Positions 1 to 59,701 of a stretch of DNA of 64,000 nt are shown here, one piece after another. The notes under the pieces were generated by a model that saw only the letters and a list, made by a program, of their open reading frames with translations, ran no database searches and was not told where the DNA came from. The translations under genes were made by a program, and so were the position numbers. The stretch's first letter is position 1. Every line of letters starts with the position of its first letter. This DNA is from Squalus acanthias (taxonomy: Eukaryota): contig CM059432.1 of NCBI GenBank assembly GCA_030390025.1, forward strand, positions 27,468,001 to 27,532,000, written 5' to 3'.

Positions 1-12
1 AGAAAAGACCCC

Positions 13-462: not shown

Positions 463-715
463 AATCTGAAACTCAGCAAAAAAGAAGGGATTTGGAAAGC
501 CAGGAAAATCTGCTGAGACGCTTATGTAAAAAAAAAAGAGAGAAATTTAAAGTTTTATCGACATGGAAGTTATTAATGTCTGTGCCAAGACAAATAAAAT
601 CCAGGATTTGCTGAGTGAAAGGAATCTTAAAAGGAATACTGAGATCTCAGTTTGTGTGAAAGTGAGTGAAAATGTGCAAGTTTCCCTGACTGTGAATGTT
701 TAAGTCTGTTAAGTT

Positions 716-5990: not shown

Positions 5991-6260
5991 CGATTGTGAG
6001 AAGTCAATAAGGATTATTTCCTTCTCAAAGAAGGGAATTGTAAGAAATAGCTGTTAGATTCAAAGATGGGTTTTAATTCTTAGAACAAAAGCTGACAACA
6101 TGCAGCCAGGAACAGATAGCAGAAATGCCAGCAAGGTCGAATATCAAGCATCAAAAGACAAATAGAAGTGATAAGGGAATCGTAAAATGCAAAACAACAC
6201 ATGGTGGGGGATAATAGACAAAAATGGAGTCGAAAAATTAAATTTTGAAGGACTTACACA

Positions 6261-7311
6261 ATGAAGCTGTTACTTATATTTTGCATATTAATCGGATTGA
6301 TACGCATGACATGCCAAAGAGGTGGGGAAGGATCCCGAAAGAAACGAGAATTACACGTTAACACTTTCTTGTACATGTCTTACGAGCATGCTAAAACTAG
6401 TGGTAGATCTAGTTGTTGGGTCTGTGCCCATATACCTATTCACACCACGGGAGGGATCCTCCTCAGATCAATTCCCTTTAATACTTCCGAAACAGCAGAA
6501 TGGGTAATAAGAAGAAACAGTTCAAGGGACCTGGATAAGACCTCAGATGTAGTACAGTGGAGATGATGCAGGGTATAACCTAACCACCTTTCAGGGGTGG
6601 TATCAGCCCAATTATAATCATACTCGAACACCCCCGTTTCTTGTATTAACTAATACCTCAGGAGTCGGTAGACCACAAGGGGCATTATGTTTTAAAAAGC
6701 AGGCTGCAGTAAGCAGGATGCAGGATGAAAAGAAAGTTGGAGAGAGTTCCTGTAATCAAATAGTCATGTGGCAACCACCAATTCCTGGCCTGCTTGAGCA
6801 GGGATTTTTTCAGTTTGACTGGACTAAAGTAAATAATAAAACCAGTAGGTCCCCCTGGACAGGCGACCCTATCCGAAAATGGATGGGAGGAGAGGGTAAC
6901 TTGACGGCCTATAGTTGCACCTATTTTATATGTGGGAACAAGGCTTATCCATGGTTGCCACAAAACTGGACAGGGTCCTGCTATTTGGGTTATGTAGTAC
7001 CTTATATCCACATTTTAGACAATATAGGAGAACATTATGAATTCCAAAGAAGTAAAAGAGAGATAGCAACTTATGAAAGAGTCTTTGGAGTATTAATAGC
7101 CCCATACGGAATAGGGAAGTTAATGGGAGAAGTAAACGAGCTAGCAGATCTGATAGAAAAAGTGGCAAATGAAACTGAGGAAGGATTGTTCGAAATGAGT
7201 GCTGAAATGTTAGCTATAAGAGTAATGGTACAGAGGGAAGTAAATGAAGAAGAAGAGAAGAACAGTCCCCTAGGGGAAGAGCTAAGGCGATTGGGTAAGA
7301 TAATTTTTTAA
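6261..7311 (+). pseudogene. env: Gamma-type (class I ERV) env, interrupted and truncated in TM
   Basis: Signal peptide MKLLLIFCILIGLI, CWVC (CXXC) motif, YFICGNKAYPWLPQNWTGSCYLGYVVP, furin site RSKR, fusion peptide (VFGVLIAPYGIG) and heptad repeat. Stop at 6564-6566; the sequence diverges before the immunosuppressive domain. Confidence 0.85.
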
Positions 7312-9169: not shown

Positions 9170-11037
9170 ATGGCTGATCCCAGTCCCAGGGAGAGAGCTC
9201 GCCGTTTCAGCGACCAGGCATTGGAGGCATTGGTCGCGGCAGTCGAAAGAAGGAGGGCGGTGCTGTTCCCTGTCTTCAGGGGAATGTAGAGCAAAGTGGC
9301 CCAGGATGTCTGGGCCAGCAGTGTGGTCCTCAGGACCCTCACACAGTGTCGTAAAGAATTCAACGACCTCACTCGGGTGGTCAGGGTGAGTACATGCTTC
9401 AACAAGTCCCACATCCCAGCATCTGAACCTCAGTCTGTACACACTGCACAAACCACCACACCCCACCACTCACCCACCAAGCATCTGCACCTACTCAAAA
9501 TCACATCCACATGTCACGCCTTGCCTACAATCACAGCTATTCAACTATGGCAGGCACATCTCCCAAATACACAGCTGCACACTTACACACTTTCCTTTCT
9601 CTTGCAGGCCAAGCTGGCCCACAATAGGAGGAAGCAGCAACAAACAGGCGAGGGTGAAGCGGACATCCAACAGCTTACAGGCCTGGAGGAGCGAGTGCTG
9701 AGTGCTGAGAGTCATTGGGTGCCGTGGCCATCGGCGACATTGACCCCCTTGGGGGCAACAACGGTATGTTCATCCCCTCTCCTTCTCTCATCCCACTTCC
9801 CCCTCACCCCACAAGCATTTCGCACTTTCCAGCTAATCATGCTGTATGCATGCATTTCTCCCTTCCTGCTCCCCGCCCCTCACCTTAACCCGACTCTTGT
9901 GCTTTTATGCTTTCAGATAATCAGCAAACACCTGAGCAGCCTGTCCCTGAGGGCACCGCAGAGAGTGAGGTGAGAGAAGAGGAGGAGGAGGAGAAGGAAG
10001 AACACTCCGCGTCACTGCATGTCTCACCCGCAGGCACCAGCTCAGATACTGGCACCACGCATTCTTTCGAGGCTAGTATAGTAGCGGGATCTGCACAGGG
10101 TGAGCACCGGGGACGAGTGGGCTGCAGCAAGGCCAGGGGGAAAGGGTAGCTTGGGAGCCAGCTCCTCAGAGGGCGAGTTCCCGTGCGAGTTCTGCTGCAC
10201 AGGACTCAGATGAGGACCTCGATGGGGAGGCATTTAGAAGAAGGGTAATGGGCATGCACTCCGAGATGATAGGTGCAATGGCAAGGGTGCCCGAGAGTCT
10301 CTCAGCAATGATAAGGAGCGTGGAGGAGTCTGCATTCAACATTGCACAAGGCTCTGCGCACACCATGGAGTTCATCATTTCCAGTCTGCAAAGGATGGTA
10401 GACTCCCAGAGAGACCGTGGTGACCCAGACCTGATGTGTGATGGGCGATCTGGCAGCTTCCATTGCAGCACAGGCGGAAGCGACGCAACATCTTAGTGCT
10501 GTAATGCAGTCTATGCTTGGTGGCATCCAATCTCAGACTGCTCTCATGCAGTCTCAGCTTGATACCACGCAAGCTCTGACTGCTGCCATCGTGGCTGGGT
10601 CTACCACCGTCCACCGGGGCTTTCATGGTGTCGCAGCAGGCCAGCAATCTGTGCTCCAACAGATTGCTAGAAATGCTAAGTTGCTGTCCCGGGGAAGTGG
10701 CAGTGGGTCAGTGGAGCAGGAACCTGCTGTCCTCTCTCAGGATGATAGCATTCCTGTTCCCACCACTGCCACTCCACCATTGCCCATGTTGCTGCCTGTC
10801 ATCCAGCAAGCCCAGACTGCTGCCGCCCATGCTGAAGTAGTGCAGTCGACAGCCGGGCCTTCCAGGCCCAGAGCTGGTCGAGGGTGTCCTCCAAGGCCAT
10901 CTAAATTCTCCCATATGGACACTCAGCAGCCTTCCACCAGCCCTGCTGCAGCCACTGGGCCAACACTTTGTAGGAGCACTAGAGTAGGCAAAGGCACAGT
11001 AACGACAGGCACTAAGGGATTGCACAAGGGTGAATAG
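9170..11037 (+). pseudogene. Harbinger Myb/SANT-like DNA-binding protein, spliced and degenerate
   Basis: MADPSPRERARRFSDQALEALVAAVERRRAVLFP ... RTLTQCRKEFNDLTR, then GTGAGT donor (about 9386), CAG acceptor before AKLAHNRRKQQQTG, a second intron (about 9763-9916), and an acidic, low-complexity last exon with disablements. Confidence 0.75.
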
Positions 11038-11202
11038 TTAATATTTTTGGTGTAAATATGTGTGAACTGATTATTGATAAATTTATTAATTCAGTTTGGA
11101 TTCTTTTGTGGTGTCTTTCATTTCAGATTTGCGCTGTGATTTGGCCTGTGACACGGATGGAATGATGGGGATGTGGTGAGCAAAGGGGATCTGGGTTTTA
11201 AT

Positions 11203-12349
11203 TTATTGGAACCGCAGTTTGATGAGGTGGTCACGGACCGCCCTTCCGGAAGGCTGATTGAGTGGCTGCCTCCTGCCTCGCAGCTGTACCTCCTCCTCCT
11301 CATCCTTCTCCTCGTCCTCCTCCTCCTCTCCCTCTTCCTCCTCCTGAGGTGGTTCCGCAATCCCTGGTGGCAAGGGCTGAGCCCTGATGATGGCCAAGTT
11401 GTGGAGCATGCAGCAGACCACCACGAAATGGGACACCCACTCAGCCAAGTACTGGAGGGCTCCTCCCGATCGGTCAAGGCAGTGGAACTGATGCTTGAGC
11501 ACCCCGATGGTCTGCTCGATGATGTTCCTGGTGGCAGCATTGCTCACATTATATGAGTGCTGGGCAGGAGTGTTGGGGTTGTGGAGGGGAGTCATGAGCC
11601 AGGTGGAGAGTGGATAGCCCTTGTCTCTGAGCAGCCAGCCACGAGCTTGAAGTGGTGGCTGGAAGAGTGCTGGCACACCGTCTGGCACAGGATGAATGCA
11701 TCGTGGCTGCTGCCAGGATAGCGGGCATTCACATTGAGGATTCGCTGTCTGTGGTCGCACACCAACTGCACATTAAGTGAGTGGTAGCCTTTGCAGTTAC
11801 GGAAGATCTCAGGATTGTTACGGGGTGTCCGCAAAGCCACGTGGGTGCAGTCGATGGCGCCCTGCACCATGGGAAATCCCGCTATCCTGGCAAAGCCACA
11901 TGCACGCTCGTCCTGCTTCTCTCTGGTGATGGGGAAGGAAATGTAGTCCCTTCTCCTACTGTAGAGAGCCTCTGTGACCTCCCGGATGCAGCAATGTTAG
12001 CTATGTCTCCTGTTGCAGACTGGAATGATCCACTGGCGAAGAAATTGAGGGAGACGGTGACCTTGACTGCCACTGAGAGAGCCGTGGTCGCCCTGATCTG
12101 AGGTTGGAGATCTGGTTGCAGGAGGTGGCAGACTTGTGTGACCACCTCCTTGGTGAAGCGGAGCCTTCTAATACACTGCTCTTTGCTTAATTGGAGGTAG
12201 GAGACGTGCTCTCGGAATACCCTTGGTGGGTAAGGCCTCCTGTTGAGAGCCCTGATGGTCCTTCTCCTCCCTCTGGCCACATTTTCCATTCTTTCTCGTT
12301 GCCTCTGCTCCCTCTTCCGTAGATTCTGGAGGGCCAGGTCGACTACCAT
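11203..12349 (-). pseudogene. Harbinger DDE transposase (HARBI1-like, DDE_Tnp_4), frameshifted
   Basis: Motifs are split over three frames: [82 protein letters not shown]. Confidence 0.9.
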
Positions 12350-12409
12350 TAATGTAAGCCAAATGTAGCGGTTTGATTTTTTTAAGAATAAATGTAACTG
12401 TAAGAGCTT

Positions 12410-15163: not shown

Positions 15164-15341
15164 TGTGACTCCAGGTTATAGTCCAACAAGCTTTCGGAGC
15201 GCTGCTCCTTCACCTGACGAAGGAGCAGCGCTCCGAAAGCTTGTGATTTCAGATAAAGCTGTTGGACTATAACCTGGTGTTGTGCGACTTCTCACATTTG
15301 TCCACCCCAGTCCAAGGTGCATCTCCACATCAATGTGACTC
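15164..15341 (+). mobile_element. Penelope-derived palindromic insertion (family B)
   Basis: Inverted CCAGGTTATAGTCCAAC...GTTGGACTATAACCTGG, terminal GTCCACCCCAGTCC, flanking direct repeat TGTGACTC. Confidence 0.7.
15210..15246 (+). ncRNA. Minimal type I hammerhead ribozyme motif (family B)
   Basis: TCAC-CTGACGA-A-GGAGC-AGC-GCTCC-GAAAG-CTT-GTGA: conserved core, stem II, and stem I TCAC/GTGA. Confidence 0.65.
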
Positions 15342-19782: not shown

Positions 19783-20169
19783 ACCACCAACAGATCCATT
19801 GACCATCTCCTTACGGAGCCGAGGAAAGCGTGGCCCACAGTGCAGGCCGCAACTGTTGGGTACTGCACATGTGCGGTTTCGGCATGCGCAGAAGGAGATC
19901 GGGTGCGCCTGCACGGCTCCGGGACACCGCGCGCATGCGTAGAAGGCCGCAAAGATGTTTGTGCAGATAATCACAGTGGCAAATTAAATCCTCTGCTGAA
20001 GGCGTTGACTCCTTATAGGAGTACAGTTCTAGAGGCAGCAGTGCCCCAGTGGTCTTTATCCATTTGTGAGCCTTGACAGTGAGTGTAAACAAGCTATTCT
20101 ACCACAAGTTGCATCGCAACCGTTCCTGATCCTGTCCTCATCCGGTAACCACACAGGTCCAGTCACGGT

Positions 20170-20960: not shown

Positions 20961-23272
20961 TATCTGTCATTAGATAGTGATCAGGAGTCGGATCTCTTGT
21001 CCATTTTTCTGCTCCTTAATGACACTGAGACCAACTATAGCTCCTCGACGAGGTAATTCAACTTGGGCAGAACATCAAAGCTGGGAGCTTTTTGGTCAAC
21101 AATAGCAAAATACTGCGGATGCTGGAAATCTGAAGTAACAACAGAAAATGCTGGAAATACTCAGCAGGTCAGGCAGCATCGAGCAGAGAGAAACAGAGTC
21201 AACGTTTCGGGTCGAACCCTTCATCTTGGTCTATATGGCTAAGCTACTCGCTAAACTTGCTGAGACATCAGGGGCCCTTGGTTTGCCTGTTTACAACAGT
21301 AAGTGCATGGAGAAGGCAGATGAACAAAGGGAGAAAACCAACTTGAAGAGCTTCCCAATGGCTTGGTGGGTCATTGCACCGTTATGTTGATCCCCTGACT
21401 GTCTGTTCTGAGATAGCTGATCTCGCAGCCGAGGGAGTACGGGAAAATGCTGCAACTGGCCTCAGTGCCACAGAGTAGAGAGAGGAAGAATCTGCCAGGG
21501 TTACCCAGTCAACCTCTGGATGTGCGTGTACACGTCAGATAAGGACAAGATCGGGCTCGGCTGTGATGCCCTCCACAGCTGATCAGCAAGCCAGCACTCA
21601 CTGTCGAAGCTCATACATAAAGAATGGCCCCTTGGGTAAGGCACTGGAGGGGACGAGCATGTACCCCAGCATGCCTTCAGCAGAGATGGGGAAAGGAAAA
21701 TCAGCTGGGTGTCTGAAAGACGTGGAGACCCATCACCATACACACCAACATAGAGAACTAGCAAGCCCAGACCAACAGCTTCCCAAAAGATGATTACTCA
21801 AAAGTAGCCTTGAATAAAGACAAGTAAATGGACTGAAATCAGGTACAGTAGTGCAGTGGTTATATTACGGGACTAGTAAACCAGAGGCCTGGACTAATAA
21901 TCCAGAAGAATGCATTCAAATCCCACCCTAATATGAATTCAGTTCTTTAAAAATCTGTCAATAAAAAGCTGATATCAGTAAAAGTGACCATGAAGCTGTC
22001 AGATTGTTGTAAAAATCAAACTGGTTCACTAATGTCTTTTAGGGAAGGAAACCTGCTGTCTTTACCCAGTCTGGCCTATATGTGACTCCAGTCCCAGACC
22101 AACATGGCTGACTCTTAACTGGCCTAGCAAGTCACTTCATTGTATCCAGGGCAACCAAGGAAGGGACCTTGCCAGCTACACCCACATCCAAGACTGAATT
22201 ACAGAAAAGGAGTAAGAAAAGAGGGAAAAAAAATCTGCAGAGCATGAAAATGTATTTTGTAAACATTTCTGAAGAGTGTTTGAAATACATTTACTAATTT
22301 ATCCTCCTCCCTCTGAAAAGTTTAATTTGGACAATTTGGTGCATTTTGGTGCCTACTGTAATTCATTCATGTTAAATAATTACAACTTAAATAACAAATA
22401 AATCAAAATGATGCACAGAGACCACAGTGGGTTTGCAAAGCAGCTGGGGTCCAATAATAGGAGGGATGGCAGATGGGGCAGATTCAAATCAGACATCTCT
22501 GTGGAATAATTCACAGCCAGTAAGGCAACTCCACCAAAGAACATACCAGATCAGTTCCAGAAACTTTGATTAACTTGTTTTAAGCAATCACACTGCAAAG
22601 GAAAAACAAGCATCAGTATATTTAAACGTCAGCCATACCTCACTCCTTAGGGGACAAGCCTAGCGTTTCTTTGCCTCGCCATGACCACAGCATGGCTGCA
22701 GTTTGTACTATCTACAGGATGCACTGCAGCAGGTCACTAAGGTTACTTCAACAGCCCCTTCCAGCTTCACGACCTCTACCACCAAGAAGGACAAGAGCAG
22801 CAAGATCATGAGAACACCATTATCCAAGTTCCCCTTCAAACCTCAGACAATCTTGGTTTAAAGTTATATCACGCTTCCCAATCAAAACTCTGGAATTCAC
22901 TACCTAACACATCATTGTGGTCATTTTGACTTTGGGCGAGAGTGTAAAACAGGCGATATGGATCAGCCGCCCATTATACATCACTGCTGATTTTCATTTC
23001 CATTGAGGTCAAAATTACCTCCCATGGATGCACTATCAGCACAAGGACTACAGCAGTTTCAGGTCCACCACCCTTCTCAGGACAACTTGCCAGCATCACC
23101 CCGTCACAAGAACAAATTTAAAAAATCTTCTTTTTCATTTGGTTCCATATTCTTGTAAGTTATGTATTCCTGGAATATGCTGCAAGTAGGAATTTCCATC
23201 ATTGGAGCAACTGATTAGACCTGTAACATTCCACAAAGTTCTCCTCTTACAGCACATACTGTGATTTACTAC

Positions 23273-29258: not shown

Positions 29259-29495
29259 ATGAGAAGTCGCACAACACCAGGTTATAGTCCAACAGATTTA
29301 TTTAATTTTACAAGCTTTCGGAGCGGTTCGCTCCTTCCTCAGGTAGGGTAGCAGTGATACTCTCACTGCTACCCTACCTGAGGAAGGAGCGAACCGCTCC
29401 GAAAGCTTGTAAAATTAAATAAATCTGTTGGACTATAACCTGGTGTTGTGCGACTTCTCATTTTTGTCCACCCCAGTCCAACGCCGGCATCTCCA
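29259..29495 (+). mobile_element. Penelope-derived long palindrome (family B) with a hammerhead motif on both strands
   Basis: About 100-bp perfect inverted arms around a loop near 29360. TSD CTTCAAGACAGAAA. Core TAC-CTGAGGA-A-GGAGCG-AAC-CGCTCC-GAAAG-CTT-GTA at 29375-29411. Confidence 0.8.
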
Positions 29496-34451: not shown

Positions 34452-36640
34452 AAAAAGTCCCAATTCTGATCTAACAGGCCTCATCAACATACTGGAAGCG
34501 TGACCAGCACCAGCAGCTCATCCAGGTGAAGATTTTAATGTCCTGCCGCCTGCCTCGCTGGCAATGGCCCTCAGTTAAGTGATGGGAGGGGGGCATTGGA
34601 GCGGCCTACTGGCATTAGGCTCCTAATTTACATATTTAAAGGGCCCGGGATGCCTATAAAAAAAGGGCCCATGAATTTATCAGTCGGACCAACGCCTGTG
34701 CAAATTAGGCGCAAGCCATCCCACTGCTAAATTGGTAAGCTGTGTGTCCTTTTACACCCAGAAAATGGGCACAACGCATACCAATTTCTAACCCCCTGTA
34801 TTGCCCTGTGCTCACCCCAGAACCCTTCAGGGCAAATGTCTTCTGTGCATGCTCAGATCTTGTGGGTGTGCTGGGTGTACAATCAGGTGGATCCACTGGG
34901 ATGAACCTAAGGTTGCCAACCCTCCATGATTGCCCTGGAGTCTCCAGGAATTTAGATTAACCTCCTGGACACTGCTGCAAACAACCTTCATCATCGCTGG
35001 GTCAAAATCCTGGAACTCCCTCCCTAACAGCACTGTGGGAGTACCTTCACCAGACGAACTGTAACAGTTCAAGAAGGCGACTCACCACCACCTTCTCAAG
35101 GGCAACTAGGAATGGACAATAAATGCTGGCCTTGCCAGCGACGCCCACATCCCAGGAACGTGTGTAAAAGAAAACCTGGGAGAAAAAGCATAGGGGCATT
35201 AAAAATGTAAAATATTGGAGATGGGGAAAAAAGGCTGTTTGACAGGGCAGGGAGGTTGGAAGCCTCATTGGAAATGAAAATCTGGAGAGACATATAGCAG
35301 GGTGCCGACTCGCTATCACCTGTTTTACACGAGCGCACAGAGTCAAATTCTACCCCATGTGTTTAAACCTCCAGGAATAAGTCCGACCAGAGTTGGCAAC
35401 CCAAGCCCAAGGCAGCCGTTGAGGTGGTCACAATTGACCTCAGCATCCCTGAGGTGACGGAGCATGAAAATCAGCCAGGGTGTCCTGCTGGATACCGTGC
35501 CTGTGTGGATGTTAGGTGGTGATGGAATGGGGCTTGGTTGTGACGCTCCTCAAGGTAAAATAGCTGACACTCACTGTCTGTTCTCACACATGAAGAAGGA
35601 CCTACTGGATGGTAGCTGATAGCTTTGAAACCATTGCGTAAGGTAGGTGAGGAGTAGATGGAACTTTGGAGGGGGGAAGGGAGAGCACTAAGCACGAGGG
35701 CTGGCATCTGTGTTTTTCCTGCTGCCGAGTCCTGTTGACCAGGACTTTCCTCAACGCTTTTCCCGCTCCGCCACCGTAACTTTAGGCAGAAGTTCGGTGG
35801 AAACCCCATCTAGGGAGCAGGAGAAGCTATGAGGAAATTCCTAGCTGTTAATTTTCTTTCTCCCCTAGCTTTTAATGTCACTTTTCAGCAGGGACCACTG
35901 ACCACTGTCTATTGATCAGGGGTCTGATCCCTGACTGATTGCCCCCTCCCTCCTCACTAGCATCCACCATTAAACTAAGATCTTGAGGCCCAAGGACAGA
36001 TCAGGGACTAAGCCAAAACCATCCTGATTAATAGAGCTCAGTATCCCACTGACACACCAGAGCATCGATGCAGTTTGACTCACAACCTTTAATTGAAGAT
36101 CAATTGTTAAATCGATTGTGATCTCCCTTGTTCACACTTCATCCCTTAAATCTAAATTGGCTGTTGATTAGAAGTTATCAATCTATTGGGGCTGACCTAT
36201 GAAAGTGGTGCAAAGGAGCAAATCGTTGCTGATTAGAAACAAACACACATTAGCTTAAAACCTTTAAGAAGAAAGATGAGAAAAGGCAATGGGGAATAAA
36301 CCGAAAATGAGACTACAGTAAGGTTGACAACCCTCCCGGATGGTTCAGGGGTTTCCCGGAATTGCCAGTCGATCTCCCGGACACTGCTACTGGCAATCCA
36401 GGAGAAAAGTAATGAAAACAGAAAATGCTGGAAATACTCAGCAGGTCAGGCAGCATCTGTGGAGAGAGAAACAGAGTTAACGTTTCAGGTCGATGACCTT
36501 TCATCAGGAGGAAAGGGGGGAAAAAGATTCGGTATCGACCATTTTGGGGCACTAACATCGCTTGGGCGCTAATTAGTGCTGGCAACCGCAAAATTGAGTT
36601 TTAGAGCCCCAAGAGGGAAGTGGAACACTAGACCAAGCGC

Positions 36641-37360
36641 AAATAACAACAGAAAACGCTGGAAAAACTCAGCAGGCCAGGCAGCATCCGTAGAGAGAGA
36701 AAGAGAGTTGACGTTTCAGGTCGATGACCTTTCATCAGAACTGGGAAGAGCTGGAAATCAAATAGATTTAAGGCCAGGGTAAAGCTGGGAAAAGGGGGAG
36801 GGGATAAAGGAACAAAGGAGGAGATGAAGAGACATTAAGAGACATTAAGAGATATGCAAGGCTAGAGGTGGTGTTAATGTGACAGATTAAGGCTGAATGA
36901 AGTGTGAAATCCACTGGCAGAATGAAGGACAGCTGCCAGCTTCTAGGAGGAAAAAAAAGGTGGGGGGGACAAATAAAAGGGTGGATAAAATAAAATATAA
37001 ATGTGATTGGAGCTGAGGTTATGATCTAAAATTGTTGAACTCGATATTGAGTCCAGAGGGCTGTAGCGTGCCTAAACGAAAGATGGGGTGCTGTTCCTCG
37101 AGCTTACGCTGAGCTTCCGTGGAACAGTGTAATAGGCCGAGGACGGTGAGGTCAGAGTGGGAGTGAAGCGGTGAATTAAAGTGACAGGCCACCGGGAGCT
37201 CGGGGTCCCCCTTATGGACTGAACGGAGGTGTTCCGCAAAGCGGTCACCCAATCTGCGTTTGGTCTCCCCAATGTAGAGGAGTCCACATCGTGAGCAGCG
37301 AATACAGTATACTAAATTGCAGGAAGTACAAGTAAATCGCTGTTTCACCTGGAAGGGGTG
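36641..37360 (-). mobile_element. Penelope-like element 3' fragment: GIY-YIG endonuclease, 3' UTR and terminal repeat (family A)
   Basis: FTCTSCNLVYCIRCSRCGLLYIGETKRRLGDRFAEHLRSV...PVACHFNSPLHS...LGTLQPSGLN, stop at 37019. Confidence 0.9.
36706..36742 (-). ncRNA. Minimal type I hammerhead ribozyme motif (family A)
   Basis: Minus strand reads AGTT-CTGATGA-A-AGGTC-ATC-GACCT-GAAAC-GTC-AACT: intact core, GUC cleavage triplet, stem I AGTT/AACT. Confidence 0.8.
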
Positions 37361-40300
37361 AAACCTAGACCAAGCGCACCGCTTCCTTCTTGGGGCGCTA
37401 ACGTTGGAGAGCGGGACGGAGACTTCAGCGGCGTTGCACACTGGGCCACCAAGGCAGCCGCGATCCCGCGCGATCAGCCCTGCACTCAAGCAGAGAGCCG
37501 GGCTGATCAATCGCTGGCAGGAACCCGTGAAAAAAACTAGAACAAGAAAGTTAGTTTTTTTTTTACTTACCTCGGCCACCTCGCCTTTAATCATCGCCCC
37601 CTAAGCAGCCGGCTGCCCGATACACGCCCCCTGCAGCTGTCGGTGTTTTCGCCCGGCGCTGCTGCAGGGGGTGGAAGTCAATTTCGGGACTGGGGCGCTA
37701 CCGGAGCGATGCGCACGGCGATGACGTCACGACCTCTGGGCGAAAGAGAGCGGGGAGCAACGCCGTAGCGCTGCCACAAAACTCCTGCCGAATATGGCGG
37801 GAGTCGATGTCAGCGCCGTGCCCGGTCACAAAGCCATTTGCGCCCCCTGTTAGCCCCCCCCTGGGTGGCGCTAACGGGGGCTACAAAGACATCCAATTTC
37901 ACCCCAAGGACTTTTCTTTGGGCAGTTCATGTTTACCTGCCTCTGTGAGTGAAAGCATTACGGTGAATACCAAAGGAAATAGTTTCTCTCTGTCTACTCT
38001 ACCCAGCGAGTGATTTCAATGTGGAACTTGCTACCACAAGGAGTAGTTGGGGCGAATAGCATAGATTCATTTACGAGGAAGCAAGATAAACACATGAGGG
38101 AGAATGGAATAGAGGGCTATGTTGATGGGGTGAGATGAAGAAGGGTGGGAGGAGGCTCGTGTGGAGCATAAACACCGGCATAGACCTGTTGGGCCGAATG
38201 ACCTGTCTCTCTGCTGTAAATACTATGTAATACCTCAATTAGATCACCCCTTAATCTTCTATACTCGAGGGAATACAAGCCTACTCTATGCAACCTGTCC
38301 TCATAATGTAACCCTTTTAGCCCTGGTATTGTTCTGGTGAATCTGCACTGCACCTCTTCAAAGGCATCATCTCACTTTCCCCCAAAGCTACTCCTTGCTT
38401 CAGCCAAGATCTCGACTCTTGCTCCCTCCCTCTGACAGTTCCTGCCCCCGCGCTGTTCTACCTCCCTCCGTGGAGCTGGAGGCGCTGTCTATCACCAGAG
38501 TGCCAGCCATGGTCCAGTAGCAGCACTCTCTCCTCTGAGTCAGAAGATTGTGGGTTCAAGTCCCACTCCAGAGACTTGAGCACAAAATCTTGACTGACAC
38601 CTCAGTGCACTGTTGGAGGTGCTGTCTTTCGGATAAGATGTTAATACGAGACCCCATCTGCTCTCTTAGTTGGACATAAAACATCCCGTGGCACTATTTC
38701 TAAGAAGAGCAGGGGAATTCTCCATGGTGTCCTGGCCGATATGTGTCCCTTAACCAATATCACTAAAACAGATTATCTGGTCCTTATCACATTGCTGTTT
38801 ATAGGACCTTGCTGTGCACAAATTGGCTGCTACATTATGACAGTGACTACACTTCAAAAGTACTCATTGGCTGTAGAGCACTTTGGGATGTCCTGTGTTT
38901 GTGAAAGGCGCTATATAAATGCAAGTTCTTTCTTTTTATTGAGCGATTCCCTGGTTGAATATCCCTCATGCCTGGTTGCTGGTTCCGCCTCCGCCGCCCT
39001 TGCATTCGCCAGAGATGTGGCTTGCCATATTTCCTGTGAAGTTATGGCAGTGGAGGGGGTGGACCAGCCACCACCACTCCAGAGAGCCCCGGAGACAAGA
39101 GCTCCGGCCTCTGAATACTGGGTTGATGGCCAGTGGAATACTTGTGTCCGATGGTCGTAAAGTGGTGACCACCCCCACCCCCACCCCCTCCCATTGATCT
39201 AGTCGGGCTAATAACCTGCCCTGTGCTCGCTGACCTACATTGGCTCCCGGTCTGGCAATGCCTTGATTTTAAATTGTCATCCTTATTTTCAAACCCCTCC
39301 ATGGCCTCGCCCCTTCCTATCTCTGTAACCTCCTCCTGCCTTACATTGCTCTGAGATCTCTGCATTCCTCCAAGTCCAGCCTCTTGCGCATCCCTGATTT
39401 TCTTCGCTCCACCAGGCTGTGCCTCAAGCTACCTAGGCCCTAAGCTGTGGAATTCCCTCCCTAAACCTCTCTGCCTCTCTCTCTCTCCCCCTTTAAGGTG
39501 TCCCTTAAAACCTACCTCTTTGACCAAGCTTTTGGTCCCCTGTCCTAATATCACCTTATGTGGCTCGGTGTCACATTTTGTTTGATAACACTCCTGTGAA
39601 GCTCCTTGGGATGTTTTACTATGTTAAAGGTGCTATATTAATGTAAGTTGTTGTTGTCCACGTAGAAAAGGGGGCTTTTGTTACGGAAACATAGGAACAG
39701 GAGTAAGCCGGTTCTGCCATTCAATTAGATCATGATGCGGAGATGCCGGTGTTGGACTGGGGTGGACAAAAATGAGAAGTCGCACAACACCAGGTGCTGA
39801 TCTGTAGCTTAACCATCTAGCCGCCTTGGATCCGTAACATCCCGCTATGCTGGATGTAATAGCAGCGGTTGCCTCAGGGAAGAGGAGAGAGTGTTGCTAT
39901 GACCTGGAGATGTGAAGGATTTCAACAGCAAAGCAAATCTCAAGAGCTCAGGCAACTCTCCTGGCCCAGCAAGAGGGAGCAATCCTACCCAGCGACCCAG
40001 CCCCCGCAACCCAGTGTTTTCACCTCACAGCTAACAAGTAAAACTTAAATTGAGCCTTGATAAGGGAAAGTTTAGAAGTTGCCTCATCAGACTGGCTCCA
40101 TCCTGTCCCAGTCTCTCCTTTTAACAAACACTACATTTGCAAATGCGCATGCTGGAACCCTGTGCTGATTGCAGTGTGAAGTTCAAAGCAAATGGAGGCA
40201 AGCGTGGGCTGGGCTTTCCAAAGTACAAGCAGACCAGTGTTACGACTGCCTTGAGGAGAAATGCAATATGCTGATCACCTTTTTCACCTCCCTTTAGACA

Positions 40301-40834: not shown

Positions 40835-42084
40835 TCTGTCCTGCCATTCACGCACGCGCACACACACACACGCACTTTCCAGCAGGATCTTTGGACAGTG
40901 CGATGGGGAGGGATTTTGATCAGAAATGAAAATAGAAAATGCTGGAAATACGCGACAGGTCCAGCCAGCATCCATAAAGAGGAGAGACAAGTTGTGACGT
41001 TTCAGTTGTTGACCTGAAGCGTTAGAATCGGTGTTTTCTCTGTACCGATGCTGACTGAGGCACCTTGGGATATTTTACTACGTTAAATATCAATGCATTT
41101 TCTGTTTTTACTTCAGTGTTTGCATATTTTTTTCCTTTTACTGATTGGGACCGAGGCGCACTGTGATGTTCCCCCTTCCACTCCCCTCACTGTCTAAACG
41201 CACTTATACAATGCAGTACTGATTTCAGGAGAGCAATGCCGGCGAGCCCATTGGCAGTTCACATAGACCCACAATACATTGCGTCTCTGGTGCTGCACGA
41301 ATGAGGCAAATCGGGGTCTTTGTATTACTCAACGCAGCCTATGACAAGACCGTGTGGGGGAGGGGGGTCGTTCTGGCTGCCTGCCCCTATTTCGTGGTCT
41401 TGTACGTGACCGGGTGGCCCTGGAGAGGGAGCACATACGCTCGGGGCCTTCGGCGACTGGTGGACACAGTGTCGTAGACACAAATAACAACATTTATGAT
41501 TTAGATTTGTAAGTCTCCCTTTTGGTTAAATTAGATTATAAGTATGAATTATTATATTAGTCATGCCTCCTCACGAGGGGACACTTGTAATTTGTTTTCC
41601 TGTTGATGTCACTCTTATAGGTCAATTAAAAAAAAGACATGTATTAATAAGGAAATGGCCCGGCACGGTTAGTACAGAGCCACTCAGAACTGCTCTCTGC
41701 CAACACCTTCAGCACCTCGATCTAATTCCTGTAGAGCGAGCATATCAGCTGGCTTGGGAGCCTTGCTCTGCACTGCCACTTTCCTCAGAAGGACTTTCCA
41801 ATTAAAACGTAGAGGTTTGCTTTGATTACGGTGTTGCTAATGCCGTAAAACTACGCTACCCAGCTCCTCACATGCTTAACCAAATGAATTGCTGAGCGAC
41901 TGCACTCCAGTAGAGTCCCAGGCCAGATCTGAAGCCTGTGCTGAGTTGACTGATCTCGCTGAGATGGTGGCAGTGCCACTCCAAATTGCTGCGGTGCTCT
42001 TGTGTTTGAGTTAGGAGAACCCGTCAGTGTGCCCTCTCCAGATTGTCATCCAGCGACCTCACATGGCTCTCACTGACAGAGGGA

Positions 42085-44178
42085 TACCTGCACATCACCC
42101 ACTGATGGGCAATACCCTCACATCACCCTCTGACGGGCAATACACTCACATCACCCACTGACAGGCAATACCCTGACATCACCCACTGATGGGCAATACC
42201 CTGACATCTCCCACTGATGGGCAATACCCTCACATCTCCCACTGATGGGCAATACCCTGACATCTCCCACTGATGGGCAATACCCTCACATCTCCCACTG
42301 ACGGGCAATACCCTGACATCTCCCACTGATGGACAATACACTCACATCACCCACTGATGGGCAATACCCTCACATCACCCACTGATGGGCAATACACTCA
42401 CATCACCCACTGATGGGCAATACCCTCACATCTCCCACTGGCGGGCAATACACTCACATCACCCACTGATGGGCAATACCCTCACATCTCCCACTGGCGG
42501 GCAATACACTCACATCACCCACTGATGGGCAATACCCTCACATCACCCACTGATGGGCAATACCCTCACATCACCCACTGATGGGCAATACCCTCACATC
42601 ACCCACTGATGGGCAATACCCTCACATCACCCACTGATGGGCAATACTCTCACATCACCCACTGACAGGCAATACCCTGACATCAGCCACTGATGGGCAA
42701 TACCCTGACATCAGCCACTGATGGGCAATACCCTCACATCTCCCACTGATGGACAGTACACTCACATCACCCACTGATGGGCAATACACTCACATCACCC
42801 ACTGATGGGCAATACCCTCACATCTCCCACTGATGGGCAATACACTCACATCTCCCACTGATGGGCAATACCCTCACATCACCCACTGATGGGCAATACT
42901 CTCACATCACCCACTGACAGGCAATACCCTGACATCAGCCACTGATGGGCAATACCCTCACATCACCCACTGACGGGCAATACACTCACATCACCCACTG
43001 ATGGGCAATACACTCACATCACCCACTGATGGGCAATACCCTCACATCTCCCACTGATGGGCAATACACTCACATCACCCACTGATGGGCAATACACTCA
43101 CATCACCCACTGATGGGCAATACCCTGACATCTCCCACTGACAGGCAATACTCTCACATCACCCACTGATGGGCAATACCCTCACATCTCCCACTGATGG
43201 GCAATAGACTCACATCACCCACTGATGGGCAATACACTCACATCACCCACTGATGGGCAATACCCTCACATCACCCACTGATGGGCAATACACTCACATC
43301 ACCCACTGATGGGCAATACACTCACATCACCCACTGATGGGCAATACCCTCACATCTCCCACTGATGGGCAATATCTTACATCACCCACTGATGGGCAAT
43401 ACCCTGACATCACCCACTGATGGGCAATACACTCACATCACCCACTGATGGGCAATACCCTCACATCACCCACTGACGGGCAATACCCTCACATCACCCA
43501 CTGACGGGCAATAGACTCACATCACCCACTGATGGACAATAGACTCACATCACCCACTGATGGACAATAGACTCACATCACCCACTGATGGACAATAGAC
43601 TCACATCACCCACTGATGGGCAATACACTCACATCACCCATTGACGGGCAATACCCTCACATCACCCATTGACGGGCAATACCCTCACATCACCCACTGA
43701 CAGGCAATACCCTGACATCACCCACTGATGGACAATAGACTCACATCACCCATTGATGGGCAATAGACTCACATCACCCACTGATGGACAATACACTCAC
43801 ATCACCCACTGACAGGCAATACACTCACATCACCCATTGACGGGCAATACCCTCACATCACCCACTGATGGGCAATACCCTCACATCACTCATTGACGGG
43901 CAATACCCTCACATCACCCATTGACGGGCAATACCCTCACATCACCCACTGATGGGCAATACCCTCACATCTCCCACTGATGGGCAATACCCTCACATCA
44001 CCCATTGACGGGCAATACCCTCACATCACCCATTGACGGGCAATACCCTCACATCACCCATTGACGGGCAATACCCTCACATCACCCATTGACGGGCAAT
44101 ACCCTCACATCACCCATTGATGGGCAATACCCTCACATCTCCCACTGACGGGCAATACACTCACATCTCCCATTGACA
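42085..44178. repeat. 28-bp minisatellite, about 75 copies
   Basis: Consensus CATCACCCACTGATGGGCAATACCCTCA, period 28 (for example 42121 and 42149), no spacers. Confidence 0.97.
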
Positions 44179-44567: not shown

Positions 44568-47500
44568 GGGTAATTTTTGATAAAGCAGTTCGGGAGCATT
44601 TAAACTAGTATGGCAGGGGGCTAGAAACCTATGTAGTGAAATAGAGGAAAGTGAAAGGCAGACAGAAATAAATGGTAAAAGGGTGAGGAACAAAAAACAA
44701 AGGGCCAAACTAATTCATAAAAAATGTGAGCATAAAAAAAGCCTGAGGGTTTTATACCTTAATGCGAGAAGCATCAGGAACAAGGTAGATGAATTAGCTG
44801 TGGAAATAGAGGTTAATAATTATGATCTAATTGGGATTACGGAAACATGGTTGCAGGGTGAGCAGGGCTGGGAGCTTAACATACAGGGGTATTCAGTATT
44901 TAGGAAGGATCGACAAAAAAGAAAGGGAGGAGGGGTAGCATTGCTGGTAAAAGAGGGGATAAATGCAATTGAAAGGAAGGATATTAACTCAGTTAATACA
45001 GAATCTATATGGGTGGAGCTAAGAAATAGCGAGGGGCGAAAAACATTAATAGTAGTGGTATATAGGCCTCCAAATAGTAAAATAGAGGTTGGGGAGGGCA
45101 TCACGAGGGAAATTAGAGAAGCGTGCAATAAGAGCACAGCTGTCATCATAGTTGACTTTAACTTACATATAGATTGGAATAGCCTAATCAGTAAAAATAA
45201 TGAGGAGGAGGAATTCCTTGAGTGTTTAAGGGATGGTTATCTGGATCAATATGTCAAGGAACCAACTCGGGAACAGGCTATATTGGACTGGGTACTGTGC
45301 AATGAGAAGGGACTAATTAGTAATCTTGTTGTACGGGGACCCTTGGGTCAGAGTGATCATAACATGATCGATTTCTCACTCGAAATGGAGAGCGAAGAAA
45401 TTGACTCAGAGACTAAGGTCCTGAATTTAAACAAGGGGAATTATGATGCCATTAGACGGGAACTGAGTAGGTCTGATTGGACAACGTTCCTGGGAGGACT
45501 GGAGGTAGATAAACAATGGCAAGCATTTAAAGATAGAATGACAAAATTGCAAAAATTGTTTATACCAATCTGGCATAAAAGGAAATCTAAAAAGGTGACT
45601 CAACCGTGGATAACAGGGGAAATTAGAGACAGCATAAAATCCAAAGATAGGGCGTATAAAATAGCCAAAAAAAGCGCCAGAGCGGAAGATTGGGAACAGT
45701 TTAAGATAGAGCAAAGGAGGACAAAGGGCTTAATCAAGAGGGGCAAAATAGCTTACGAAAGCAAGCTGGCGGAAAATATAAAAACTAACTCCAAAAGCTT
45801 TTATAAGTATATCAAGAGGAAAAGACTGGTGAATACCAAAGTTGGCCCATTGCAGTCAGATACGGGGGAATATATAACGGGAAATAAGGAAATGGCAGAC
45901 CAACTAAATGCATACTTTGGGTCAGTCTTTACGAAGGAAGACACAAAAAACCTCCCTGGGATATCGGGAAAAATAGGGACATTGGCAAAGGAGGAACTGA
46001 CGCAAATCAATATCTCTAAGGATATGGTGTTAAGGAAGCTAAAGGGATTGAAGGCGGACAAATCCCCAGGGCCTGATAACATGCATCCTAGGGTACTGAA
46101 GGAGGTGGCCCTAGAGATAGCGGATGCACTAAGTATGATTTTTCAGAATTCATTAGACTCGGGAACAGTGCCCATGGATTGGAGGGTAGCTAACGTTACC
46201 CCACTATTCAAAAAGGGGGGTAGGGAAAAAGTAGGTAATTACAGACCTGTAAGCCTTACATCAGTTGTGGGCAAAATGCTGGAGTCCATCATTAAGGATG
46301 AAATAGCGGAGCACTTAGCAAATGGGGACAGGATAGGACAGAGTCAACATGGATTTACAGAGGGTAAATCGTGCTTGACTAATCTATTGGAATTTTTTGA
46401 GGGAGTAACTGGTAAAATAGATGGGGGAGAGCCAGTAGATGTGGTGTACCTGGACTTCCAAAAGGCCTTCGACAAGGTCCCACATAAAAGATTAGCATGG
46501 AAAATTGAAGCTCATGGGATAAAGGGGAAAGTATTGACGTGGATAGAGAACTGGCTGTCAGATAGAAAACAGAGAGTTGGAATAAACGGCTCATTTTCTG
46601 AATGGCGGGCAGTAACAAGTGGGGTACCACAGGGATCTGTCCTGGGTCCCCAGCTGTTCACAATTTACATTAATGACCTGGATCAGGGAGTCGGATGCAG
46701 CATTTCCAAATTTGCAGACGACACTAAACTAGGAGGGGGGGTGGGCTCAGAGGAGGAGACCAGGAAGCTCCAGAGCGATTTGGACAGACTGGGTGATTGG
46801 GCGGATAAATGGCAGATGCACTATAATGTGGACAAGTGCGAAGTTATCCACCTTGGGTGCAGGAACGGGAGGGCAAATTATTATTTAAATGGCAATAAAT
46901 TGGGAGAGGGGGAAGTACAGAGAGACCTGGGTGTTCTTGTACACCAGTCACTGAAGGCGAGCATGCAGGTGCAACAGGCGATCAAGAAGGCAAACGGTAT
47001 GCTGGCCTTCATAGCAAAAGGGTTGGAATACAGGAACAGGGATACCTTGCTGCAGCTGTACAGGGCACTGGTGAGACCACACCTCGAGTACTGTGTACAG
47101 TTTTGGTCGCCTCATCTGAGGAAAGATGTTCTTGCCATGGAGGGGGTGCAGCGGCGATTCACCAGGCTGATACCAGGAATGGCGGGATTGACCTATGAGG
47201 AGAGACTATGTAGTTTAGGGATGTACACACTGGAGTTTAGAAGATTGAGAGGGGACCTCATAGAAGTGTATAAAATTCTGACAGGTCTAGACAGACTAGA
47301 TGCAGAAGGAATGTTTCCCTTGGCGGGTGAGAACAGAACTAGAGGACATAATTTAAGGATAAGGGCTAAACCATTTAGGACAGAAATGAGGGGGAATTTC
47401 TTCACTCAGAGGGTGGTGAACCTGTGGAACTCATTGCCACAGAGGGCAGTGTACGCCAGCTCATTAAATATATTTAAGAGGGAATTAGATATATTTCTAC

Positions 47501-47654
47501 AGGCAAAAGGGGTTAAGGGTTACGGAGAGAAGGCGGGGACGGGATACTGAATTGGAGGATCAGCCATGATCTCATTAAATGGCGGAGCAGGCTCGAAGGG
47601 CCGGATGGCCTACTCCTGCTCCTATCTTCTATGTATCTATGTATCTATGTATGT
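44568..47654 (+). mobile_element. Young CR1 LINE, 5'-truncated at the end of ORF1
   Basis: ORF1-type tail (AVREHLN*, stop 44606-44608), complete ORF2, short 3' UTR and (ATGTATCT)n tail at 47631-47654. The 5' boundary is approximate. Confidence 0.9.
44683..47550 (+). CDS. CR1 ORF2: APE endonuclease plus reverse transcriptase, 955 aa, uninterrupted
   Basis: YLNARSI, GITETWL, DFN and SDHN (APE); NYRPVSLTS, LDFQKAFDKVPH, GVPQGSVLGP and FADDTKL (RT); CR1 C-terminal RTRGH...FFTQRVVNLWNSLP. Confidence 0.95.
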   Translation: MRNKKQRAKLIHKKCEHKKSLRVLYLNARSIRNKVDELAVEIEVNNYDLIGITETWLQGEQGWELNIQGYSVFRKDRQKRKGGGVALLVKEGINAIERKDINSVNTESIWVELRNSEGRKTLIVVVYRPPNSKIEVGEGITREIREACNKSTAVIIVDFNLHIDWNSLISKNNEEEEFLECLRDGYLDQYVKEPTREQAILDWVLCNEKGLISNLVVRGPLGQSDHNMIDFSLEMESEEIDSETKVLNLNKGNYDAIRRELSRSDWTTFLGGLEVDKQWQAFKDRMTKLQKLFIPIWHKRKSKKVTQPWITGEIRDSIKSKDRAYKIAKKSARAEDWEQFKIEQRRTKGLIKRGKIAYESKLAENIKTNSKSFYKYIKRKRLVNTKVGPLQSDTGEYITGNKEMADQLNAYFGSVFTKEDTKNLPGISGKIGTLAKEELTQINISKDMVLRKLKGLKADKSPGPDNMHPRVLKEVALEIADALSMIFQNSLDSGTVPMDWRVANVTPLFKKGGREKVGNYRPVSLTSVVGKMLESIIKDEIAEHLANGDRIGQSQHGFTEGKSCLTNLLEFFEGVTGKIDGGEPVDVVYLDFQKAFDKVPHKRLAWKIEAHGIKGKVLTWIENWLSDRKQRVGINGSFSEWRAVTSGVPQGSVLGPQLFTIYINDLDQGVGCSISKFADDTKLGGGVGSEEETRKLQSDLDRLGDWADKWQMHYNVDKCEVIHLGCRNGRANYYLNGNKLGEGEVQRDLGVLVHQSLKASMQVQQAIKKANGMLAFIAKGLEYRNRDTLLQLYRALVRPHLEYCVQFWSPHLRKDVLAMEGVQRRFTRLIPGMAGLTYEERLCSLGMYTLEFRRLRGDLIEVYKILTGLDRLDAEGMFPLAGENRTRGHNLRIRAKPFRTEMRGNFFTQRVVNLWNSLPQRAVYASSLNIFKRELDIFLQAKGVKGYGEKAGTGY

Positions 47655-47906: not shown

Positions 47907-48046
47907 CGAAGTCGCACATCACCAGGTTATAGTCCAACAGTTTTATTTGAAATTACGAGCTTTCAAATAAAACTGTTGGACTATAACCTGGTGTTGTGCA
48001 ACTTCTCATTTTTGTCCACCCCAGTCCAACACCGGCATCTCCGCAT
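47907..48046 (+). mobile_element. Penelope-derived palindromic insertion (family B, hammerhead deleted)
   Basis: Inverted ACCAGGTTATAGTCCAACAGTTTTATTTGAAA arms; TSD CATGGCAAAAGG (47895-47906 and 48047-48058). Confidence 0.75.
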
Positions 48047-57560: not shown

Positions 57561-57566
57561 TTTATT
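57561..57566 (-). terminator. Candidate foxh1 polyadenylation signal
   Basis: TTTATT on + (AATAAA on minus) about 1.07 kb downstream of the stop, in AT-rich unique sequence. Confidence 0.4.
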
Positions 57567-58627: not shown

Positions 58628-59701
58628 TCAGTAATCAAATGGCATGTATTGAGCCCTCACCACATTGCTCGCACCAGGTGGCATTCCAGTGCCCATTGCA
58701 CCAACTGGGCAGAACTGGTGCAATATGGTATCAAAGACACTTTTGTTTGGTGGGACAACCTGCAACATTCTGTCCAAATCCAACACAGATGGTGGACGTA
58801 AAGATGGCAGAGGGCATGGGTCAGGTAGAAAGGGCCAGCTGGGTGGGCGCAAGAACTGCGTTGGTCTGTATGGATAGAACAACAAACTTGAGGGGTTGTT
58901 GTACTGGAAGAAAGCAGAATATGGTAGACTCATACTGGAAGGCGCGATTACATTTGGAGGGGGATATTTAGTGTAGGAAGTTGGTAACTCCCAGGACATG
59001 TAGGGCCTTATTGGAAGCTCTGGCTCTGGATAGTTGGTGCAGTGATTGTCCCATATGGAAAAAGGAGTAGACCTGCCATACTCCGCTGATAATCTCAGAC
59101 GTTTTGACTCTTGCTTATGAGGGGATTCTCTTTGGGAAACATTGGTGTCATCTTCAATGGAGGAAGGACTGGAAGTTGAAGTGCTTAGGGGTGAGGTAAA
59201 CTGAATCTTGTGAGGAGCACTCTGTGAGGAAGAGAATGAAGAGGAACACTGTGGGCTCTCGCATGCTACTGGATGAGGATGCCAAGAGTTTAAATCCAAT
59301 CTTCTTTGTTGGGTAGGCTCTTCATTTGATGACTTTCTTTGGAGACAACGTTTAGAGGCCACTGGATAGCTCTTCTCCCTTTCAGATGTAGAAGCTTCCA
59401 GACTATTCCACAATGTGTCAATGGAAAAGGCACCATCCGACCTGCTGCCACCTTGCTGCGGGAGTGCTGTTGCATGCCCAGAAGGGGATTCCGATACCTG
59501 CCGTGCTTTGCTGCTTTCTTCAGAAGCAGAGAGGCCGACAATCCCACCCTGGATATAGGCAGCCGAATTGGCCGCAAACCTTCTCCCATCTTGTCGTGAG
59601 ACAGACGTGTTTTGTCGTTTTAATGCTTCGGGTGGGATACGAGTAACGTCAACCGTCCAGTAGTTCCCCTTCCCTTGTGGCCGTTTTGGGTCATTCAATA
59701 C
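58628..59701 (-). CDS. foxh1: Forkhead box H1 (FAST-1), last coding exon
   Basis: Acceptor TTTGTTTGTTTTTTAG| then [32 protein letters not shown] (end of the FoxH1 forkhead domain), EH1-like FSIDTL, FM motif [16 protein letters not shown], and Smad-interaction motif VPPNKSVFD. Stop at 58628-58630. Upstream exons were not found in the window. Confidence 0.93.

What the first reader, a model, noticed from the sequence alone, without database searches (positions are those of the whole stretch)
36476..36742. Canonical minimal hammerhead downstream of a Penelope GIY-YIG ORF, with a second copy about 230 bp away
Seen: an intact core with GUC triplet at 36706-36742 and a second same-strand copy at about 36476-36506. 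Further partial or degenerate copies are at about 17481, 21200, 26110, 27541, 29140 and 40995. Established: Penelope-like elements carry minimal type I hammerheads whose palindromic stem III (here ACGT) favours dimeric cleavage. Inference: two nearby copies on one transcript could form an active dimer, and they lie sense to, and within an intron of, the candidate minus-strand gene.
Basis: partly seen in the sequence, partly recalled or inferred. Interest (0 to 1): 0.7.

Follow-up and report, generated by a model that had tools for sequence, protein, structure and literature searches.

The report
Penelope retroelement hammerheads, two separate insertions
This is the known self-cutting RNA motif carried at the end of a very abundant jumping gene in a cartilaginous-fish genome; two separate, truncated insertions happen to lie 231 bases apart, the second is incomplete, and the site is ordinary.

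Summary
The motif is real. A minimal type I hammerhead (36742-36706, minus strand; 4-bp stem I, 5-bp stem II, palindromic ACGU, GUC) ends a 5'-truncated Penelope-like element (37360-36641, last 113 codons of a Neptune-type GIY-YIG domain) with a 13-bp target-site duplication. The second copy (36507-36411) is a separate insertion of another subfamily with its own 11-bp duplication. It begins exactly at C3, lacks the 5' arm of stem I and has GUU. The family is very abundant (11 hits in 64 kb; tens of thousands of contigs per DNA run) and shows the known PLE signatures: AUG inside the core 26 nt before the cut, optional tail of about 34 nt, inverted 5' ends. I could not identify a host gene with an intron here. 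Known kind (Cervera and de la Pena 2014); low interest.

The parts
37365..37377 (-). 5' copy of the 13-bp target-site duplication of insertion 1 (14 bp with a shared T at 37378)
   Evidence: exact match to 36640-36628
37361..37364 (-). 4 bases between the duplication and the element, not part of the family sequence
   Evidence: family contigs leave the window sequence behind 37360 (table 7); sequence
36641..37360 (-). Insertion 1: 5'-truncated Penelope-like element (end of ORF, pLTR, hammerhead, first 95 nt counted from the AUG), no tail
37019..37360 (-). Last 113 codons and stop of the GIY-YIG endonuclease domain, Neptune-type by homology
36743..37018 (-). Pyrimidine-rich pLTR / 3' untranslated part; ends in a 3'-splice-site-like CAG whose AG is the outer half of stem I
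   Evidence: splice use not shown
36706..36742 (-). Hammerhead copy 1, complete minimal type I motif, predicted cut after C 36710
36733..36735 (-). AUG inside CUGAUGA, 26 nt before the cut; inferred start codon of the element's ORF
   Evidence: same spacing reported for PAc in PMC11167929; a protein search with the peptide found nothing
36628..36640 (-). 3' copy of the target-site duplication of insertion 1
36508..36640 (-). 133-base spacer of another dispersed repeat (the host of insertion 1) and flank; not PLE sequence
   Evidence: weak match at 1674-1725; multi-copy depth
36505..36515 (-). 5' copy of the 11-bp (1 mismatch) duplication of insertion 2; its last 3 bases are the CUG of the core (microhomology)
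   Evidence: 14 of 3000 random 18-mers score as high
36411..36507 (-). Insertion 2: 97-base solo fragment of another subfamily (90.7% identical to copy 1), starting at C3
36475..36507 (-). Hammerhead copy 2: core, stem II, ACGU, U17 (36479) and 3' arm present; stem I 5' arm missing
   Evidence: family contigs continue with the missing arm (table 7)
36399..36409 (-). 3' copy of the duplication of insertion 2

Best explanation
Both motifs are passengers of a very abundant Neptune-type Penelope-like retrotransposon family. Reverse transcription starts about 95 nt (or about 130 nt, giving the tail) downstream of the AUG that sits in the hammerhead core and usually stops early, scattering short 5'-truncated copies with target-site duplications. 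One copy ran 720 nt and kept a whole hammerhead; another, inserted separately 133 bases away, stopped at C3. In the active element the hammerhead works as a double hammerhead between tandem repeats or two RNAs, probably weakly and with help from the element's protein, to trim precursor RNA. At this locus it has no selected function; if the region is transcribed, copy 1 can at most cut copy 2's GUU in cis or take part in trans pairing with other family RNAs. Shown: anatomy, duplications, truncation points, abundance, stem I geometry. Inferred: RT start sites, the AUG as start codon, clade, cleavage behaviour, lack of function.
For: Separate duplications and subfamily differences. Family contigs run on beyond 36507 with the missing arm (879, 595, 997 and 57 contigs in X1, X3, X6, X19) and beyond 37360 into more ORF (116, 61, 154, 7). 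11 hits in 64 kb; 99,052, 65,848 and 116,694 contigs laid on the 2.4-kb stretch from three DNA-type runs (these include the host repeat). Optional tail in 4 of 11 hits and inverted 5' junctions, as described in PMC8557442, PMC3846280 and PMC11167929. AUG 26 nt before the cut as in PAc. Closest proteins are shark, ray and skate RT/GIY-YIG proteins with a C-x4-C-x2-C linker. Published minimal hammerheads cleave weakly even as dimers, and the PAc ribozyme cleaved only with its protein.
Against: No cleavage or RNA-end data for this family. The empty site was not seen in another individual or species (one search showed 15 joints; 458 more were not shown). The AUG is not confirmed by any protein hit. 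Covariation among the 8 window copies is weak: two A-U to G-C changes at pair 10.1-11.1, and 32 of 500 shuffles reach the covariation score. The Neptune linker itself lies outside the fragment. Copy 1 has the better triplet (GUC) and an intact motif, so some activity at this locus is not excluded.
Confidence: 0.86

Rival explanations
1. One reading: the two copies fold into a symmetric cis double hammerhead on a host pre-mRNA and cut after GUC 36710, affecting an intron.
For: Same strand, 231 nt apart, identical ACGU palindromes and stems II; dimer cleavage is published for the class.
Against: The half that would cut 36710 needs copy 2's 5' arm, which pairs at 1 of 4 positions with a C-A mismatch next to the core. 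No spanning host gene was identified.
Confidence: 0.03
2. Accidental half-dimer: a transcript from insertion 1's own pLTR (or a host read-through) lets core 1 pair with copy 2's ACGU and 3' arm and cut after GUU 36479 at a low rate, without biological role.
For: Stem I 4 of 4 pairs and stem III 4 of 4 pairs form in this register. GUU is a cleavable NUH triplet (PMC3138052 passages) and common in PLE hammerheads (15 of 56 rows of Fig. S3 of PMC4209133 by my count). The D. virilis Penelope promoter lies in the pLTR region (PMC2377424 passages).
Against: Only 8 bp hold the two sites together across 231 nt; the nearest-neighbour ensemble puts this fold 12 kcal/mol above the unconstrained one (the model penalises every hammerhead core, so this is weak). 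Promoter activity of this pLTR is untested.
Confidence: 0.2
3. The pair is a non-LTR retrozyme dimer: cuts at both sites release a 231-nt unit that circularises and spreads.
For: 231 nt is inside the 170-400 nt range of retrozyme RNAs (PMC7229834 passages); retrozymes are proposed to derive from pLTRs (bioRxiv 2026.07.22.740005).
Against: No tandem repeat here; the spacer is unrelated repeat DNA between two separate duplications; the circle would carry copy 2's broken stem I.
Confidence: 0.02

Closest known systems
Minimal hammerheads (min-HHR) in the pLTRs of metazoan Penelope-like elements (Cervera and de la Pena 2014, PMC4209133; Lunse, Weinberg and Breaker 2017, paper not held, seen only as cited in PMC6765202)
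   Same: Type I, no helix III loop, palindromic 15.1-16.1 positions, extra nucleotide after A9, 4-bp helix I, position in the repeat after the GIY-YIG ORF, mass occurrence as single motifs in truncated copies.
   Different: A10.1-U11.1 instead of the consensus G-C (A-U also occurs in a few rows of their Fig. S3, e.g. Latimeria 2). No cartilaginous fish among their 56 listed examples.
PAc, Poseidon element of Anolis carolinensis (Frangieh et al. 2024, PMC11167929)
   Same: Cut site 26 nt after the AUG; two alternative 3' ends that give the optional tail; palindromic minimal core.
   Different: Neptune-type rather than Poseidon endonuclease by homology; 3' ends at +95 and about +130 in a U/G-rich stretch rather than at +111-118 in an AC-rich stem loop; this copy is a fragment without RT.
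Neptune clade of EN+ Penelope-like elements (described in PMC8557442 and PMC3846280)
   Same: C-terminal GIY-YIG with CCHH residues; relatives carry the C-x(2-5)-C-x2-C linker; 5' truncation, inverted 5' ends, 30-40 bp tail.
   Different: Linker and RT are missing from this copy; no tree was built.
Non-LTR retrozymes (PMC7229834; bioRxiv 2026.07.22.740005) and conserved intronic hammerheads of amniotes (RECK type, PMC6155905 passages)
   Same: Type I hammerheads; spacing of retrozyme size; possible position in a transcription unit.
   Different: Not a tandem repeat of one unit; second motif incomplete; minimal rather than canonical helices; no evidence of conservation at the locus or of a host intron.

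Membership tests
PLE minimal type I hammerhead | Core CUGANGA and GAAA with NUH triplet | tested here: met
   Both copies; GUC in copy 1, GUU in copy 2
PLE minimal type I hammerhead | Palindromic helix III positions, no loop | tested here: met
   ACGU in both copies
PLE minimal type I hammerhead | Helix II with an unpaired base after A9 | tested here: met
   5 bp, 3-nt loop, extra A at 36731; A-U/G-C change at the first pair in 2 of 8 window copies
PLE minimal type I hammerhead | G10.1-C11.1 (consensus above 80%) | tested here: not met
   A-U in both copies; a listed minor variant in Fig. S3 of PMC4209133
PLE minimal type I hammerhead | Helix I of 4-5 bp, copy 1 | tested here: met
   AGUU/AACU, 4 of 4
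PLE minimal type I hammerhead | Helix I of 4-5 bp, copy 2 | tested here: not met
   1 of 4, closing pair mismatched; truncated at C3
PLE minimal type I hammerhead | Self-cleavage as a dimer | not testable with these tools
   Needs a cleavage assay; the runs offered were contigs only
EN+ Penelope-like element | C-terminal GIY-YIG endonuclease with CCHH motif | tested here: met
EN+ Penelope-like element | Reverse transcriptase in the same ORF | tested here: inconclusive
   Missing from this truncated copy; present in relatives P0003 and P0022
EN+ Penelope-like element | pLTR with hammerhead, optional 30-40 bp tail, inverted 5' ends, target-site duplications | tested here: met
Neptune clade | C-x(2-5)-C-x2-C linker between RT and EN | tested here: inconclusive
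   Outside the fragment; intact in 7 of the 8 relatives aligned, last Cys changed in P0006
Neptune clade | Placement in an RT phylogeny | not tested
   No RT sequence in this copy
Non-LTR retrozyme | Tandem units, each with a complete type I hammerhead | tested here: not met
   No tandem array at the site; two separate insertions; copy 2 incomplete
Domesticated intronic hammerhead (RECK type) | Lies in a host intron and is conserved at the locus | tested here: inconclusive
   No spanning gene identified; orthologous sites not resolved

The most novel reading that the evidence does not exclude
The start of the hammerhead core is a programmed 5' boundary of this family's RNA or cDNA: a 3' splice site lies inside stem I in two subfamilies, and short copies begin preferentially at C3-G5 (3 of 11 window hits; inverted joints at 36507/36741 in three runs). 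The family would then make, in huge numbers, 95-130-base 'substrate-only' copies that cannot cut but can be cut, and a chance neighbour with a whole hammerhead, as here, would form an asymmetric cis ribozyme that cleaves any transcript crossing the pair at the downstream GUU.
Probability: 0.1. Interest if true: 0.45.

Novelty: new member of a known kind. Interest (0 to 1): 0.13.

Why it matters
As found, it matters little: it adds a cartilaginous-fish Neptune-type family to a class described in 2014, and it corrects the test (watch 36479, not 36710). If the family's hammerheads were active, their abundance would put very many potential cut sites into this genome's transcripts, and the natural core-plus-substrate pair here would be a ready construct for asking which half of a minimal double hammerhead cuts and whether the element's protein is needed, which is still open for PLEs.

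Tried and rejected
No whole genome is held, so no genome-wide count of triplets or 5' ends was possible. Rfam gave three unrelated matches below their gathering scores and no hammerhead. The family pattern gave 2 stretches in metagenome contigs and 0 in viral contigs. No RNA holder is on record; the one RNA-guessed run laid (X19) had no cover on the unique flank 35600-36247: neither is evidence on expression. The triplet position 36710 was not among the 40 difference rows shown (281 more hidden), so family-wide GUC/GUU shares are unknown. Joints that skip or go back 230-240 bases are read as family contigs split between the two copies, not as a 231-bp tandem. Exon search: 203 of 203 minus-strand ORFs of 45 aa or more above 20 kb, 150 of 168 plus-strand ORFs and 62 of 93 minus-strand ORFs below 20 kb, listed after leaving out ORFs wholly inside large repeats, gave no host exon; the scan also missed the real foxh1 exon, so it is weak. 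The AIG2_2 hit at 22741-22926 (18 bits, cut-off 27) had no PDB match and was rejected. A protein search with the 43-aa peptide from the core AUG found nothing. Folding energies do not discriminate: even the symmetric trans dimer of copy 1 scores -11.1 against -23.9 kcal/mol for the best misfold. The C3-G5 cluster of 5' ends has P 0.004 for a fixed window but 0.22 for any 3-nt window, so it is only a lead. Earlier scan notes: nothing by place, sequence or specific words; 8 shown of 225 for 'hammerhead Penelope' concern other systems.

Full report
Observation. On the minus strand, 36742-36706 holds a complete minimal type I hammerhead: AGUU (36742-36739), CUGAUGA, one extra A, a 5-bp stem II with a 3-nt loop, GAA, ACGU, C17 at 36710 and AACU. 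A second core lies at 36507-36479, 231 bases on, identical except for U17. A fixed-spacing core pattern matches 3 times in the window against 0.06 by chance, with 0 of 100 shuffles reaching 3. Rfam finds no hammerhead up to E 1; I take that to reflect the missing helix III.

Insertion 1. Copy 1 ends an insert at 37360-36641 flanked by an exact 13-bp duplication (37377-37365 and 36640-36628). It holds the last 113 codons of a GIY-YIG domain (Pfam E 2.7e-4, just below cut-off), a stop, 276 bases of pyrimidine-rich pLTR, the hammerhead and 95 bases counted from the AUG in the core. The other 80 codons of the 193-aa ORF come from the repeat it landed in. Contigs of the family leave the window sequence behind 37360 and continue into more ORF (116, 61, 154 and 7 contigs in X1, X3, X6, X19), so the copy is 5'-truncated. 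The fragment's 25 protein hits are led by skate, ray and shark predictions at 64-76% identity, which is my basis for calling the host a cartilaginous fish. Seven of the 8 relatives aligned have an intact C-x4-C-x2-C linker before the endonuclease, the mark of Neptune and Nematis in PMC8557442 and PMC3846280 (passages). The linker lies outside this fragment and I built no tree, so 'Neptune-type' is by homology.

Insertion 2. Copy 2 is 97 bases, 90.7% identical to copy 1, and shares diagnostic letters with the copies at 21.2, 24.8 and 62 kb, whereas copy 1 is 97.9% identical to the 17.5 kb copy. It has its own 11-bp duplication with one mismatch (36515-36505 and 36409-36399), matched by 14 of 3000 random 18-mers; the last three bases of the 5' copy are the CUG of the core. 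The 133 bases between the two inserts are not PLE sequence. Family contigs run on behind 36507 with a consensus that supplies the missing arm (879, 595, 997 and 57 contigs; agreement only 0.41-0.47). So the pair is two independent events, not a partial tandem of one element.

What a cis dimer can do. In a double hammerhead the two palindromes pair, and each core, with its own 5' arm, acts on the triplet and 3' arm of the other copy (established knowledge; dimer described in the text and legend of PMC4209133; figure not seen). Core 1 with copy 2's 3' arm makes 4 of 4 stem I pairs; core 2 with copy 1's 3' arm makes 1 of 4, with C-A next to the core. The cis dimer can therefore cut only after U 36479. 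The GUC at 36710 can be cut only in trans by another RNA with a whole hammerhead. The predicted monomer fold pairs the core with the triplet region, which is inactive. The cis half-dimer lies 12 kcal/mol above the free ensemble (-82.8 against -95.0), but the intact trans dimer is penalised as much (-11.1 against -23.9), so these numbers do not separate the models.

Triplet. Of the 8 aligned window copies, 5 read GUU, 2 GUC and 1 AUU. The nearest relative of copy 1 (17.5 kb) differs at two places only: N17 and 36692, and at 36692 the other letter carries 93% of X1's depth. GUC may thus be a private change in copy 1 or a minor variant; position 36710 was not among the 40 rows shown. GUU is ordinary here: 15 of the 56 rows of Fig. 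S3 of PMC4209133 read ACGU-U by my count of the extracted text, and GUU is listed as cleavable in PMC3138052 (passages).

Family signatures. Four of the 11 hits carry a further tail of roughly 33-38 bases at the 3' end (17.5, 21.2, 24.8 and 62.2 kb), and inverted 5' junctions occur at 24.8, 27.6, 29.1 and 62.3 kb. PMC11167929 (parts 1-2 of 4 and supplement 1 read) explains the tail by two internal RT start sites, places the cut 26 nt after the start codon as here, and reports cleavage only in the presence of the element's protein, no need of it for insertion in vitro, and no RNA-seq ends at the cut. PMC4209133 (parts 1-2 of 4, supplement parts 1-2 of 3) reports no monomer activity and low dimer activity, and thousands of single motifs per genome. 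Abundance here fits: 99,052, 65,848 and 116,694 contigs were laid on 2.4 kb from three DNA-type runs, with summed depth in the millions over the inserts against 12-24 on the unique flank (the tool warns that this is no copy number, and the counts include the host repeat).

Host gene. The only host gene I identified is foxh1 (PDB match E 1.2e-14), on the minus strand with its stop at 58628 and AATAAA signals at 57566, 57085 and 55949, about 20 kb upstream of the hammerheads. Pfam scans of stop-free ORFs showed no other host exon, but they also missed the foxh1 exon, so a gene with short or non-coding exons is not excluded. The intron claim stays open.

A lead. The AG of stem I is also the end of a pyrimidine-rich CAG in copy 1 and in the consensus of the other subfamily (loose ends behind 36507 and 36744). 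An intron ending at helix I is described for D. virilis Penelope (PMC2377424 passages). Three of 11 hits start at C3, U4 or G5, which is unlikely for a fixed window (P 0.004) but not after choosing the window afterwards (P 0.22). This is the basis of the novel case and is untested.

Novelty. The class, its position in PLEs, its dimer requirement and its mass occurrence in truncated copies are in print. No cartilaginous fish is among the 56 examples of PMC4209133, and my searches (listings only) showed no paper on shark PLE hammerheads; the 2026 preprint (part 1 of 5 and passages; supplements closed) reports retrozymes in its one chondrichthyan. Lunse et al. 2017 was not held, I saw only its citation in PMC6765202, and its data may well include such families. 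Verdict: new member of a known kind, interest 0.13.

Noticed in passing
window 15210-15246 (+); 29312-29342 (-) and 29378-29408 (+); 47911-48003: A second family with a minimal hammerhead (palindrome AGCU, G10.1-C11.1). The 15.2 kb copy has a full 4-bp stem I and a CUU triplet; the 29.3 kb copies are a head-to-head inverted pair; the Rfam MIR8675 match at 47.9 kb (below gathering score) looks like inverted 3' ends of this family and shows CUC.
   Followed up: partly
window 37570 (-) and 36741 (-): A consensus splice donor (GAG/GTAAGT) lies in the repeat upstream of insertion 1; if joined to the CAG at 36741, the exon's AG would keep stem I of copy 1 intact. No RNA evidence.
   Followed up: no
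window 58628-59701 (-): Last coding exon of foxh1.
   Followed up: partly
window 19850-19950: CpG-rich stretch with repeated GCATGCG motifs, promoter-like (NRF1 label recalled); the gene it serves was not identified.
   Followed up: no
window 44584-47550 (+): Uninterrupted 988-aa frame of an endonuclease/RT LINE (CR1-like by eye), suggesting a young copy.
   Followed up: no
window 9290-12409: Decayed Harbinger-type DNA transposon: DDE_Tnp_4 fragment on the minus strand (E 3e-15) facing a second broken ORF on the plus strand.
   Followed up: no
window 1-7311 (+): Broken retrovirus-like region (protease-like and envelope-like frames by eye; Pfam gave no match for the two frames scanned).
   Followed up: no
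window 42084-44176: Minisatellite of 75 copies of a 28-bp unit, 92% matches.
   Followed up: no
L001 701-727 (+) and L002 118-145 (-): Two metagenome contigs hold similar minimal cores with GUC; L002 has G-C at the first pair of stem II where this family has A-U.
   Followed up: partly
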